The notes below the pieces were generated by a model. It saw only the letters and a program-made list of their open reading frames with translations. It searched no databases and was not told the DNA's origin. Shown here one piece after another: positions 12,338 through 36,500 of a stretch of DNA of 64,000 bases. The DNA lies in the NCBI GenBank assembly GCA_951406725.2, contig OX597824.1:47988001-48052000 (forward strand), given 5' to 3'. This DNA is from Octopus vulgaris (Eukaryota). A program made the translations under genes and the position numbers. The first letter of the stretch is position 1. The number at the start of each line of letters is the position of its first letter.

Positions 12338-12553
12338 TTAAGGTTCGTCAGCATATGGGATACTTTCGGCACGGTTTAGCCATGGTTTACTTGGACATTC
12401 ATCCGTTTCAGGAGAACTTGGAAGATTATTTTTTTTTAATGGTCCAGAGCGTAATTGAAGAGATGGCAAGCTGGCAACAGAGGGCCGACTGCGTTTGTCA
12501 TAGCTGTCCAAGTGAGAATCTAAATCCATTTGAAAAGCGTTTACAACACGAAT
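12338..12553 (-). CDS. PMCA: PMCA alternative terminal exon 3: [25 protein letters not shown]...[10 protein letters not shown] (71 aa, no PDZ ligand)
   Basis: Acceptor ttcttttgttttcag|ATT; phase 0; first 7 codons differ from exon 2 only at synonymous positions. Confidence 0.88.
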   Translation of the reverse strand: MRVVNAFQMDLDSHLDSYDKRSRPSVASLPSLQLRSGPLKKNNLPSSPETDECPSKPWLNRAESIPYADEP

Positions 12554-15500
12554 CTGAAAACAAAAGAATAATAACAATAAAAATAATAACAGGAAATTTT
12601 ATATATACATACATATATATATATATATATATATATATATATATATATATACACATACATACATACACACACACATACACACATGTATTGAACACATTCT
12701 AAAAAAATATTATTTCAATGTAGAAAATAAATATTTTAAAAAAATCACATGGCATAAAGACACAAAAAAAAAAATTTAACAATCTAAATATATATATATA
12801 TGTATATATATATACTTGCCAAGAAAGGAAAAAAAAAAAAAGAAAAAGTCAAATAAAAAGAATTAAAACAAAACAAAGGATAAAACTGACAGTAATACTG
12901 ATAAAATTGCTTTATATTTTTTGTTTTAAATAAAATAACATATAGACACACACACACATATATATATATACACATACACACATATATATATATATACACA
13001 TATATATATATACACACATATATATATATACACACATAACAAGCGATAAAGTAAAATTATTGTGATTAAGAAAAGAAAAAAACAACAAAACAACAATATA
13101 AAGAATATACATGCATGCAACGTGCAAATGCTAGGCAATGAAGAAGCTGGCCCATGCAATGAACTGATATTTCTGGCTCACAAAAGTCTTTGACGCCAGC
13201 ACTGCTGAAGGAGAATTGCTCATCACACTTTATAGATCCTAAGTTATCACAATAATTGGTGGTTTATGTTGGCACAAGGCCCTACATTTATGGAAGAGGG
13301 GTAATGAGTTTGTGTGACATACAATACCTCTTTTTTCAAAGGCAATGTAAAGTGAAATGGCATTGATAGGGCATCAAAAATGTTGTAGACGTGGCTCACG
13401 AGGAGCTTACCTCTATTGTATTGGTTAACTACAAGGGACATTAAGTAACCTTGGACAGATAAGTATAAATATATGATGATGATGATGATGGTTAGGCATG
13501 ACATCCTAGTATTAAAAAGGAGAGAAGATATACTAAAGTGTGGTGTTGAAGCTTTGTTTTGAAGGTTACAACTGATATAGATTTTATGTGGAATTGAAGT
13601 GGTTTTTATGTGGAATCAAGTTCCTGAGAAGTCATTTCTTGTTGTACTCAATAATAACAATAATAATGATTTTATAATTACAATTTAATCCTCAGATTAG
13701 CAACCTAACAAAAGTTGCTAGAATTGACTTTGAAATTGGTTTGAGAATTCATCTCATATAAATTTTCTTTCTTAAAATGATAACACTTATAGAAATAGGA
13801 ATATGAGAGAAATAGGAATATGTCTATATACTAAGGCAGCAAGTGGCATATGATGAAGAAGTAGCTTTAGCTGTAGACTGCAACCAGTTTGTTGAATCAA
13901 CCTCCACAGAAGAATAATAATGTTTTCTTACTTTGGCATGATGTCTCAAATTGGAAAGAAAGAGCAATAGTTAATGGAATTCAACACAGCACATGATAAT
14001 TATTACCAAATTGTGGAGTCAAAGAAGGTAAAGCTGATCTCTTGGTAGAGCTCATGAACTAAAAAACCCACAAGTTAAAAAAAAACAAAAAAAAAACACC
14101 TGAATAATGGTAAAGCACCTAGTTTAGATGTTTCTTGTTTGTACCAACTCCTCTACCCCTATGGTAATAATAATGATATGTTGTCAAAGCTATTTTTAAA
14201 AAGTAAGGGATATATTTTAGAGAACTTTTTCTGACTAGTGATCTAGATTGTTGGAAGAATCTAAGTTTTTAGAAATGAGAGAGAGAGAGAGAGAGAGAGA
14301 GAGAGAGAGAGAGAGAGAGAGAGAGAGAGAGAGAGAGAGAGAGAGAGAGAGAGAGAGAGAGAGAGAGAGAGAGAGAGAGAGAGAGAGAGACTCACCTCAG
14401 TTCTGATTAATATACATCTGAATTTGATGGATATTTTTACCTATTAAATATTTGGTGACTTGATTAAAAGAAATATATAATGCAGAGTTTGTAGCAAGAT
14501 AATCAGTTGACAGCTACTTTACATTATTTGATGGAACATTTCAAGTTAGGATTCCATTTATTCATCCACAGCATAAGCAAGCATTAAAACTTTATGTAAA
14601 TATATTTTAATGTACTGTGCAAGTTGGTTACTTTGTTATATAATATTTTATGAAGATTTACCTTAGCTGCAGTGTATTTGTAGAGCTATGCACTCTCTGG
14701 CAAGGCACTGATGGGCTGTACAAAAGCCCATAAAGAGTGAAAGAGAAAAACTAGTTGGTTGTATCTTGCCAAAATACCTGGTGTTTATAAATATATTTTT
14801 AATACATAAACCTGCTTCAAACCTTTTTTTGATACCAGCTTGCCTGAAACTGTCCCTGGTTCTATGATATAAACTTTCACTTTGTATAATTTTTTTAAAG
14901 TGTTCTAAAGTTGTAAAGTGATCTAAATTAAAGTTCATCAAAATTTCAATTTAATTTATGTTTCAAACACCAGCTTAATAACGAAAAAGATATTTTATTA
15001 AATTCTTTATTATTTTCAAAATTTATTGAAATAAAGACAGTGTATTTCAATAGAAATATGATAATGAAATGGTTAATGAATTAAGCTATTATATTTTGTA
15101 TCAAATTTAATAATAAAATAAAAGCAAAGAGATAGTTAAATAAAATTCATATCACACATATATTTTATTCAATCTCACTTCACCAGTTTGTTACATTATG
15201 TTATACAAGAGTGTACATAGAATCATACACCATAATTCATAGGATTATTGGTATACCTTCAAATAGCAATACTGGACAATATATAACTTGAGCTGAGTTT
15301 TGCAACTGAATGGTAGATCATCATCATCATTTTAACATTCACTTTTCCATACTTGCATGGCTTAGGCAGATTTTCTACAGTTGGATGCCCTTCTTGTTGC
15401 CAGCCATAACTCGTTTCTCTTTGACTGGTTCTCATTGAAGATTGGAAACAAATGACACTACTTGTATAATGGTGGCACTCATTTGCAACAATCATGCAGT

Positions 15501-33500: not shown

Positions 33501-36500
33501 AATCTTTTTTTTTAAATGCACTTTTTATCAATGAAGTTTACGAGTCTTCAGTAGGCTGTATGGAGTAAAAAGTTATTGCATGCCAAAATATTAACTGAAG
33601 TAATATTTACAAAGAAATATTTTGAATCATGCAAGCCAATTTACTATACATATAAGACATAAATAAAGAAGTATAAACAAACTTTACATATGTATTTGTA
33701 AACCTAGCATTACTATAATATATAAAGAATCATGCAGATACAATAGAATAAGCTCATTGACTACATCCTAATAACAGCTTCTTAAATAGACAATAGAACC
33801 CTAAGCAAGCAGAGTTAAGTGTGTTGCCAAAGGACACAACACAAAACCTTCATTGAAAAACAACTCAATCTAAATACCAGGAATTTGGTGTTTTACTTAA
33901 GTTCTTTTCCTCAATGATAATTATCATTACTCATTTGGTTTTAATTACTATAGTCCTTAATCCAATATACTAAAAATATCTAAAAAATACAAAACCAAAC
34001 TGAAAATAGAATTCAGCTCTGTAAACTGAAATTTAGGAATATGAAAGAAAAAAAAGATCAACAAAAAGCAATATGTATGTGATGAAGCAATTCAATAAAT
34101 AAAATTTGATAGCAAGATATGAGACGATGAAAGTCATAGAATCATAGTTTTCTATCAAATAATGCATTCATGAACATTAAAATAACTTGAAGTAAGTTTG
34201 GTATACTATTGAAAATAATTGGTATTAATTTGTATTTAACAGAAGAAATTCTTAGAAGATAACTATTTTGACAATTAGTATCTGAGAGGAGCTGAATGGA
34301 AACAGAAATTTGACACATTAATGAAAGAAATGTGAGTAAAATACTTAAAAAATGTAATTTAAGAATTACTGAAAATAAAGGAAAATGAAACCTCTGTTGT
34401 CTTCCCTGCTTTCAAGCACATACTTAGGTACAATATAGTAAATGATATTTTATTTTTTAATTAAAAAAAAAAAAATTCGAATATCATATGATTGCTGTTA
34501 TGAACAGCAATTATTTTCAGTTAACCTGGAAGGAAAAAAAAAATAAACAGGAAAAAAAAACCAGCTTACAACACAAATTTAACCATTTGAAATGAGTCTG
34601 AGGTTGAAAGGTACAAGTAACTGAGTTAAAATAACGAAACAGAAACATAAAATAGTAAACCTTAATTAAATCAGGAGACAGTATCGTAAAGTATCTGTAG
34701 CCAGGAACCGACAAGAAGTTTACTAAATATTGCCAATTCTAATCATAATGAATTTTAATTAAACAGAAAACTGAAGAGAAATAATTCAAATAACTGCTCT
34801 TATATCTGCAGGAATTTCTAACTATGTAGAATGGGCACCTATTAGGAAGGAATTGTTCTGAAATTTAAAGAACAGAGTAAAGAAATTTATTATATTCATT
34901 GTAAATAATTATCAAAATATATATTTTCCTTCTTAGGTTAAGAGTAAATATTTAAACTAAAATAAAATATATTTAAACTATTTTTTTTTTTAGTTTAAGT
35001 GACTAATCCTTGTTTTATAAAATAACTATATAATTAACATAAATACAGTATCTGAGAAAATAACTACATAAACATTTTTCATTTAGTATGAAAAGCAATT
35101 GAAAAACTCATTAGTTTAAAAGCTTCAAGAACAGGCAAACTTTATTCACATTGCAAAACTCAATGAAAATTCATGCAATGCAATATCTTTTTTTCCTTCT
35201 TTTAACTCTAAAATAATTTACAAGCTTACAAAAATAGAATAAAAATTAAACTTAAATATTTTAAAACTCTATATTAGAGAACAAATTAAAGAAAAAAAAG
35301 TAAAATGTTTTACCTGTTGTTGGAGTCTTGTGAGGCCACGTACCCAAAGTATTTGACCTCGCCGACCAACATGGTCATCTGACTCCGGCGATGCATCTAA
35401 TTTCGCTCCATCTATGGCATCCATATCCAATTGTGCATCAGATGATGTTCCCCATGTACAAAGATGAGGAAGTTTGTGTGTAGGAATAGTGGTGATAATC
35501 TAAAAATAAACAGTAATAAATTTGGAATTTAAGAACTTCCCCTTAAAAATTGCATATGATCACTCAAAGACCTTGAATTCAAATCCAGAGATGGCATTTT
35601 AATTGTGATTCAATTTATTCTCTCCTGAAATTAAGTACAAACCTCAGATAAATCACCTATGATATGTTGTTTCTATGAAATCAGAGCTAAGCATCAGACA
35701 TTTGGAATTGTGGAGGTATTATTTGTCATTAGTAACCTTATCTTGAATAAATTCTTCCTTGCAATCATTTTTGAAAACCTCTCTCTTCCACTCTTCATGT
35801 ATCATACCTACAGGCATTGGTGATCACAGACTGCCATGCCAAATTCAGAAGATTTTTGATTTTTCTTGGGAAAGACACATCAGTTTTTGCCCATTATTTT
35901 CTGTCAGTTTATTTAAAATTTACTCTTCTAGTCTCCTACTCTTTTGTGCTTACCCCCGAGGCACAAAGGTTGGTTCACATGAAATCAGGGCACGTCTACA
36001 CACTGGGTTGGGTAGGGGACTCTGTGACATGCCGGGTGGGTGGGCGGGGAGCACACTTCACTGATTTCAGTAGGCCTTAACCATAGGACCATCTTCTGCT
36101 ATTTGATGCATATCTGGAGCCCTTGACAAGTACTACTAACATGAGCCAGAATGAACCTGAGTATTGTAATGACTAAAGGGTAACTCCATACTCTCCAAAA
36201 CTTCTAAACTCCCAAGCAGGAGCTTCACCATGGGATGCAGTTAAAGGATCATATTAAAAATTAAGTAAAATCTGCATGCAAGTAATCATTACTAATTTTA
36301 TAATGTCCTTTAAAGGTACAGGCATAGCTGTGTTAAGAAGTTTGCTTCTCAGGTAGCAATTTTAGTCTCACTGTGCATCATCTTGGGCAAGTGTCTTCTA
36401 CTGTAGCCTCAGACTGACCAATGCTTTGTAAGTCTTGGTAAATGACAACTGCATAAAGTTTGTCACATATATAATTTCTTGTTAACCTTTACATCCATTT

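What the first reader, a model, noticed from the sequence alone, without database searches (positions are those of the whole stretch)
12338..35499. One PMCA donor, three duplicated mutually exclusive terminal exons: a modular switch for the calmodulin-binding and PDZ tail
Seen: the exon ending [15 protein letters not shown] has a phase-0 donor at 35313. Three well-formed phase-0 acceptors follow at 11.6, 13.1 and 22.8 kb, opening [16 protein letters not shown] and IRVVNAFQ, each running to its own stop. Established: this junction is splice site C, which splits the CaM-binding/autoinhibitory helix between its Trp and Phe anchors; vertebrate PMCAs diversify it mainly by including or skipping cassette exons before one common last exon. 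Inference: this gene instead uses an array of paralogous alternative last exons, so one locus yields three pumps with different CaM affinity, autoinhibition, phosphorylation sites, PDZ targeting and 3' UTRs. Automated annotation easily collapses this to one isoform.
Basis: partly seen in the sequence, partly recalled or inferred. Interest (0 to 1): 0.85.

Follow-up and report, generated by a model that had tools for sequence, protein, structure and literature searches.

The report
Mollusc calcium pump's three swappable tails
This octopus calcium-pump (PMCA) gene carries three duplicated end exons behind one splice donor, which likely give three pumps with different regulatory tails; the arrangement is real but old, shared across molluscs, already annotated in public protein records, and of a kind already reported for this pump family in humans, flies and worms.

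Summary
Observation confirmed. One phase-0 donor (35313, minus strand) is followed by three phase-0 acceptors opening tails A (23674, 131 aa), B (22185, 58 aa) and C (12553, 71 aa). No fourth copy appears among 1508 AG sites. Public Octopus vulgaris proteins already carry all three tails letter for letter, so annotation has not collapsed them. A is conserved across molluscs, nemerteans, brachiopods and arthropods. B-like tails occur in the same groups except brachiopods. All 27 named hits of C are molluscs. The junction lies inside the 1-18 Trp/Phe calmodulin motif, which all three tails keep; net charge is +7, +6, +4. A and B end in class I PDZ motifs; C does not (0 of 24 C tails). The contrast with vertebrates is overstated: human PMCA1 also has two paralogous starts in tandem, and PMC9741552 lists PMCA tandem-exon substitution in vertebrates, arthropods and nematodes. 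Not shown: junction reads in this species, separate poly(A) sites, any functional difference. The residue of interest is a mollusc-restricted, PDZ-less third tail and an exon order that may be opposite to vertebrates.

The parts
35314..35499 (-). Last common coding exon of PMCA; ends in the first half of the calmodulin-binding domain (Trp anchor)
   Evidence: Exact match to residues 679-740 of P0128, TTTTAG before and GTAAAA after; aligns to the PMCA4 peptide 2KNE
35312..35313 (-). Shared phase-0 GT donor (splice site C)
   Evidence: Sequence
23279..23674 (-). Tail A coding exon, 131 aa, ends ETSI (class I PDZ motif); most conserved tail
   Evidence: Identical to the tails of P0128, P0001, P0122 and others; relatives in molluscs, nemertean, brachiopod, arthropods
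22009..22185 (-). Tail B coding exon, 58 aa, ends DTSV (class I PDZ motif)
   Evidence: Identical to the tails of P0121, P0126, P0129; 91% in Sepia pharaonis
21808..22008 (-). Sequence after the B stop that stays alignable to a relative's record; likely a constrained 3' UTR
   Evidence: tblastn of P0275 runs about 200 bases past the stop; protein-level proxy only
12338..12553 (-). Tail C coding exon, 71 aa, ends YADEP, no class I PDZ motif; mollusc-restricted in these searches
   Evidence: Identical to the tail of P0132; 33 hits, all 27 named ones molluscs, incl. the cloned Tridacna cDNA product
23030..23035 (-). Candidate poly(A) signal for tail A (only AATAAA between A stop and B acceptor)
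   Evidence: weak, AATAAA occurs 1.13 per kb here
21432..21437 (-). First candidate poly(A) signal after tail B
   Evidence: weak for the same reason
11583..11588 (-). Candidate poly(A) signal after tail C (ATTAAA also at 11754)
   Evidence: weak
37817..63139 (-). Ten upstream PMCA coding exons (core of the pump); the gene's 5' part lies beyond the window
   Evidence: Exon map of P0128 and tblastn of P0001

Best explanation
This PMCA gene has one donor at splice site C and three tandem-duplicated, stop-bearing end exons (A, B, C), and it likely picks one per transcript by competition between the three acceptors and their downstream poly(A) sites, giving three pumps with the same core and different tails. 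Shown: the exons, their phase, their conservation and their presence in annotated and transcript-like protein records. Each exon carries its own stop, so exclusivity at protein level needs no special splicing machinery (inference; PMC3228551 classes such terminal clusters as multiple-poly(A) types rather than true mutually exclusive exons). All three complete the same 1-18 Trp/Phe calmodulin motif. Predicted by analogy with vertebrate a/b variants: A (+7, ETSI) is the tightly autoinhibited, PDZ-anchored form, B (+6, DTSV) a short PDZ form, and C (+4, no PDZ) a weaker calmodulin binder that is not PDZ-tethered. History (inferred): A and a B-like exon predate the mollusc-nemertean split and probably the mollusc-arthropod split; C arose from B in early molluscs.
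For: Coordinates and chance control. O. vulgaris records P0128, P0121, P0132 join the donor exon to A, B, C; O. sinensis and O. bimaculoides listings show A and B. All three tails occur in 7 of 19 mollusc groups tabulated (two pooled by genus), and an oyster gene model fuses them in the order A, B, C (P0161). Uninterrupted ORFs of 1186-1263 aa on Logan contigs of 3.8-6.5 kb, too short to hold the introns, carry donor+A (P0280), donor+B (P0277, P0278, P0279, P0281) and donor+C (P0261). The 1198-aa Tridacna PMCA, the length of the cDNA cloned in PMC5641333, carries C. Trp-Phe spacing matches 2KNE. Class I PDZ ending in 25 of 27 A, 20 of 27 B, 0 of 24 C tails. Tail tree: A 99/99, C 96/80 nested among B; still 2 changes after removing the 9 labelling residues. 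Octopus B vs C beyond those residues: 2 of 1000 shuffles.
Against: No junction or 3'-end reads from this species were obtained, so splicing here rests on annotations and relatives' contigs. C was not among the O. sinensis or O. bimaculoides members listed (15 of 28 cluster members seen). Poly(A) signals are no more than background, and only 1093 bases separate the A stop from the B acceptor, so A and B may share one end. Beyond the first 9 residues octopus B matches insect B no better than insect A (scores 27-30 vs 30; 12-15 of 200 shuffles), and A vs B and A vs C are not significant (61 and 68 of 1000). The tree has few columns and long branches. Functional differences are unmeasured; both hydrophobic anchors are identical in all three.
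Confidence: 0.8

Rival explanations
1. Same three proteins, but A and B are not separate terminal exons: B's acceptor lies inside A's 3' UTR and both share one poly(A) site, so A/B choice is plain alternative 3' splice-site choice, and only C has its own end.
For: Only 1093 bases and one AATAAA lie between the A stop and the B acceptor, at a background of 1.13 per kb.
Against: That AATAAA (23035) is followed by a U/GU-rich stretch, as a real signal would be (sequence). No read data either way.
Confidence: 0.35
2. Vertebrate-like cassette architecture: A and/or B are internal stop-bearing exons that splice onward, through donors in their untranslated parts, to a common last exon (C or beyond).
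For: Vertebrate 'a' forms work this way (PMC8835232, passages). A fly study reports skipping of a 605-nt PMCA exon 17 of 19 affecting the C-terminal region (PMC13423992, passages; its identity with tail A not checked). P0242 enters tail C from a purine-rich, non-donor segment, 11 residues of which match window 18155-18123 (E 0.09-0.17).
Against: That match does not extend in any frame. The only donor-like site found within A's ORF plus 300 bases is weak (GTGATA near 23130).
Confidence: 0.15
3. Only one tail is used; the other two are silent remnants of exon duplication.
For: No reads from this species were laid.
Against: A and B are identical in protein across three Octopus species; C is 97% identical in Argonauta and 60-76% in gastropods and bivalves; transcript-like contigs and a cloned cDNA carry each junction in relatives.
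Confidence: 0.03

Closest known systems
Vertebrate PMCA1-4 (ATP2B1-4) splice site C, a/b variants
   Same: Same junction inside the 1-18 calmodulin motif. The alternative exon is a paralogue of the last exon (two VVNAF starts in 6A69). One form has a PDZ ligand and another lacks it (PMC8835232).
   Different: Vertebrates splice the extra exon in ahead of a common last exon, with a frame shift or in-frame insert. Here there are three exons, each with its own stop, and the tail most like vertebrate b (A) comes first rather than last. One gene found here versus four.
Tandem duplicated exon substitution in Drosophila PMCA and C. elegans mca-3 (PMC9741552)
   Same: Listed for this gene family in vertebrates, arthropods and nematodes (section 17); supplement dates the ATP2B1-4/PMCA event to Bilateria. 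Insect records show A-type and B-type tails in the same order (P0030, P0049, P0070). Fly PMCA has 7 isoforms, 6 with a PDZ end (PMC11904214).
   Different: Insects add short cassettes and unrelated short ends between A and B and show no C (0 of 9 non-mollusc groups). The rows seen name transcripts, not the region; that they mean site C is my inference.
Homologous alternative last exons / multiple poly(A) clusters (e.g. human CapZ beta, PMC3228551; tropomyosin 3' exons, PMC9741552)
   Same: Paralogous stop-bearing end exons behind one donor; 77 of 236 human tandem-exon events swap C-termini.
   Different: Here the swap cuts a known regulatory helix; separate poly(A) sites are not yet shown.

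Membership tests
PMCA (P2B ATPase, ATP2B family) | P-type ATPase core plus C-terminal PF12424 domain | tested here: met
   P0128, P0121, P0132 pass PF12424 (56-58 bits, cut-off 22.9) and core families; best PDB hits PMCA2 and PMCA1
PMCA splice site C | Junction inside the calmodulin domain, between Trp1 and Phe18 | tested here: met
   W at 8, F at 25 in all three 28-mers; aligns to 2KNE
Tandem duplicated exon substitution | Alternative exons are homologous, same phase, same acceptor position | tested here: met
   Phase 0, shared start motif; each tail alone hits PF12424 from about position 16, below cut-off, E 0.03; B-C similarity beyond the motif 2 of 1000, A-B and A-C not significant
Tandem duplicated exon substitution | Each exon is used in transcripts | tested here: inconclusive
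   Met in annotations of this genus and in transcript-like contigs and a cDNA of relatives; no reads of this species laid
Alternative last exons (multiple poly(A) type) | Each exon ends at its own poly(A) site with no onward splicing | tested here: inconclusive
   Signals present but at background rate; no 3'-end data
True mutually exclusive exon cluster (definition of PMC3228551) | Cluster is internal, flanked by further exons, exons of similar length | tested here: not met
   Exons carry stops and are 58-131 aa; no common downstream coding exon in the records
Vertebrate a/b site C variants | Cassette upstream of a common b-type last exon | tested here: inconclusive
   The b-like tail A is first here, but the A/b likeness is weak on its own (no PMCA hit; 43 of 200 shuffles vs an alligator tail)
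Vertebrate a/b site C variants | Variants differ in calmodulin affinity and activation | not testable with these tools
   Only net charge computed (+7, +6, +4)
Class I PDZ ligand | Ends S/T-x-V/I/L | tested here: met
   Met for A (ETSI) and B (DTSV); not met for C. Binding untested; motif definition recalled

The most novel reading that the evidence does not exclude
Molluscs evolved a third PMCA tail (C) from B that traded the PDZ ligand for a conserved SIPYADE end and a less basic calmodulin flank. They thereby re-invented a vertebrate 'a'-like, untethered pump independently. Because the b-like exon comes first in protostomes and last in vertebrates, the site C duplications would be convergent rather than one bilaterian event as dated in the supplement of PMC9741552, making PMCA a case of repeated invention of the same regulatory switch.
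Probability: 0.3. Interest if true: 0.5.

Novelty: new member of a known kind. Interest (0 to 1): 0.27.

Why it matters
Molluscs appear to have one PMCA gene (PMC6987452 says so for bivalves), so these tails would supply much of the regulatory variety that vertebrates get from four genes plus splicing. Shell-calcification and neuron studies that treat 'the' mollusc PMCA as one protein may be measuring different pumps: the cloned giant-clam form is the PDZ-less C type. The three natural tails on one core are a ready test of how residues after the Phe anchor tune autoinhibition. It does not change what is known about the mechanism class.

Tried and rejected
No RNA holder listed in the run search for 21000-24000: 14 holders were only guessed to be RNA, and they also hold the intron above A, so this says nothing on expression or UTR ends. 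No reads could be laid, so junction use and 3' ends in this species stay open. A fourth paralogous tail in the window: none; elsewhere in G000: none with tail C as query. Homologues of unrelated short ends seen in Biomphalaria, Pomacea, insects and horseshoe crab (14 queries): no credible match in the window. B-to-C onward splicing suggested by P0242: an 11-residue match near 18150 did not extend; not accepted. Stop read-through after B suggested by P0274/P0275: these ORFs read every TGA as Trp, a gene-calling artefact. Tail A alone against solved structures: only chance hits, E 0.2 or worse. The search of 50% representatives gave only 6 of 150 proteins with the donor motif and no usable vertebrate a/b pair; it added a nematode A-like tail and a divergent alligator tail. 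Tree caveats: first tree used the labelling residues; repeated without them and without the two longest rows. Earlier scan notes: none here. No complex prediction was run: a textbook pair would pass by likeness and not rank affinities. Eight paper searches found no description of the mollusc three-tail array; the library lacks most subscription journals, so this is weak evidence of absence.
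Full report
Observation. The window holds the 3' two-thirds of a PMCA gene on the minus strand: eleven common coding exons from 63139 to 35314 map onto public protein P0128. The last common exon ends in [15 protein letters not shown] with a phase-0 GT at 35313. 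Three acceptors open tail A (23674, 131 aa), tail B (22185, 58 aa) and tail C (12553, 71 aa), each to its own stop. Of 1508 AG sites below the donor these three score 27-34 against each other and the next best 13, so they are not chance and there is no fourth copy. The genome is an Octopus genome (tails identical to Octopus records; species not determined). Searches with the donor exon, a core exon and tail C each gave one match in G000 (lower bounds).

Are the tails used? O. vulgaris proteins CAI9730189, CAI9730188 and CAI9730187 (P0128, P0121, P0132) join the donor exon to A, B and C letter for letter. O. sinensis and O. bimaculoides listings show A and B; 15 of 28 cluster members were seen. 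Uninterrupted ORFs of 1186-1263 aa on Logan contigs of 3.8-6.5 kb, which cannot hold the introns, carry donor+A (P0280) and donor+B (P0278, P0279, P0281) in the cluster of the Sepia pharaonis protein, donor+B in P0277, and donor+C in P0261. The 1198-aa Tridacna squamosa PMCA has tail C; PMC5641333 (passages seen) cloned a cDNA of that length. No reads from this species were laid, so junction use here is inferred from these records.

Distribution. Tail A found 132 proteins (120 listed) in molluscs, a nemertean, a brachiopod, chelicerates, a myriapod and insects, and an A-like tail in the nematode Meloidogyne. Tail C found 33 proteins; all 27 named ones are molluscs, 97% identical in Argonauta and 60-76% in gastropods and bivalves. 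Tail B found 4 close relatives directly, and B-type tails appear among cluster members of molluscs, Lineus, insects and horseshoe crab. All three tails occur in 7 of 19 mollusc groups tabulated (Patella and Mytilus pooled by genus); the others show one or two, under listings limited to 90% clusters and 15 rows. C occurs in 0 of 9 non-mollusc groups. Fused gene models keep the order: A, B, C in oyster (P0161) and A, cassette, B in insects (P0030, P0049, P0070).

History. A tree of 58 tail starts (one per species and class, 58 of 64) puts A on one side of a 99/99 branch and C (96/80) among B. Without the 9 labelling residues and the two longest rows the grouping holds (2 changes; A 89, C 79), though few columns and long branches limit it. 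Octopus B and C remain alike beyond those residues (2 of 1000 shuffles), and both match the two Lineus B tails (0 of 200). A-B and A-C do not (61, 68 of 1000), and octopus B is not closer to insect B than to insect A. So A is firmly ancient, C is a likely molluscan copy of B, and the identity of mollusc B with arthropod B rests on the shared start and position.

Function. The junction aligns to the calmodulin peptide of PMCA4 (2KNE) with the same Trp-Phe 1-18 spacing; PMC12693652 (passages) and PMC8835232 (passages) describe this motif and site C. All three tails keep both anchors; the 28-mers carry net charge +7, +6 and +4. A class I PDZ ending is present in 25 of 27 A tails, 20 of 27 B tails and 0 of 24 C tails. 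Vertebrate b forms have a PDZ motif and a forms lack it, and site C variants differ in calmodulin affinity (PMC13464777, passages). By analogy C would be the weaker-binding, untethered form; this is a prediction, not a result.

Selection mechanism. Because each exon has its own stop, only one tail can be translated per mRNA without any exclusion device. The most likely scheme is alternative last exon choice with separate poly(A) sites, the class that PMC3228551 (passages) separates from true mutually exclusive exons. It is not shown. AATAAA sites follow each stop but occur at 1.13 per kb here, and only 1093 bases separate A's stop from B's acceptor, so A and B may share an end. A cassette scheme is not excluded: a fly study reports skipping of a 605-nt exon 17 (PMC13423992, passages), and P0242 enters C from an unexplained upstream segment whose weak match near 18150 did not extend. 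About 200 bases after the B stop stay alignable to a relative's record, which fits a constrained UTR.

Comparison with what is known. The human PMCA1 chain in 6A69 has MDVVNAF directly after the donor and IRVVNAF 38 residues later, so the vertebrate cassette is also a duplicate of the last exon. PMC9741552 (section 17 and passages read; supplement rows) lists the PMCA family among genes with tandem exon substitution in vertebrates, arthropods and nematodes, and its tables date ATP2B1-4/PMCA to Bilateria. The rows do not name the region; site C is my inference. Fly PMCA has seven isoforms, six with a PDZ end (PMC11904214, passages; its supplementary figure not seen). Worm mca-3a and b are drawn in PMC12092002 (figure legend). 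PMC6987452 says bivalves have one PMCA gene with multiple isoforms (passages). Eight searches found no paper describing the mollusc three-tail array, in a library that lacks most subscription journals.

One open point. In a whole-protein alignment octopus A follows the mouse PMCA2 b tail for about 69 residues, yet A is the first exon here while b is the last in vertebrates. If A is the b orthologue, the order is reversed and the duplications may be independent. The likeness is weak by itself, so this is a lead.

Verdict. Real and well conserved, but a new member of a known kind, with its three proteins already in public records. Interest 0.27; the boldest reading (mollusc-specific PDZ-less tail and convergent site C duplication) has probability about 0.3 and would merit about 0.5.

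Noticed in passing
window 12363 (minus), inside tail C at the Glu-Ser codons: Haliotis, Argopecten, Pecten and Mactra records leave tail C near this point for a different short end, and oyster, Mytilus and Dreissena have other truncated C forms. The octopus has a weak GT here (GTATCC), so a fourth short ending is possible.
   Followed up: partly
P0242 (unnamed Logan ORF) versus window 18155-18123 and 12553: Tail C is entered from a purine-rich segment that is neither the donor exon nor an intron tract; unexplained.
   Followed up: partly
P0339 versus P0260: Two Tridacna PMCA records differ in length, one with a 3-residue insert just before tail C, suggesting a micro-exon or a second acceptor; no AG 9 bases above the octopus C acceptor.
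   Followed up: partly
P0167, P0170: The nemertean Lineus has two B-like tails plus A, apparently its own third copy; they group together 98/98.
   Followed up: partly
P0312, P0313, P0319, P0186, P0196, P0213: Biomphalaria and insects have extra, non-paralogous short ends and cassettes at the same donor; none matches the window.
   Followed up: yes
window 35313-35269 (minus): Read-through of the donor into the intron would give a 14-residue hydrophobic end before a stop; no record seen with it.
   Followed up: no
window 31724-31850: Two copies of a 62-base GC-richer repeat unit in the intron below the donor.
   Followed up: no
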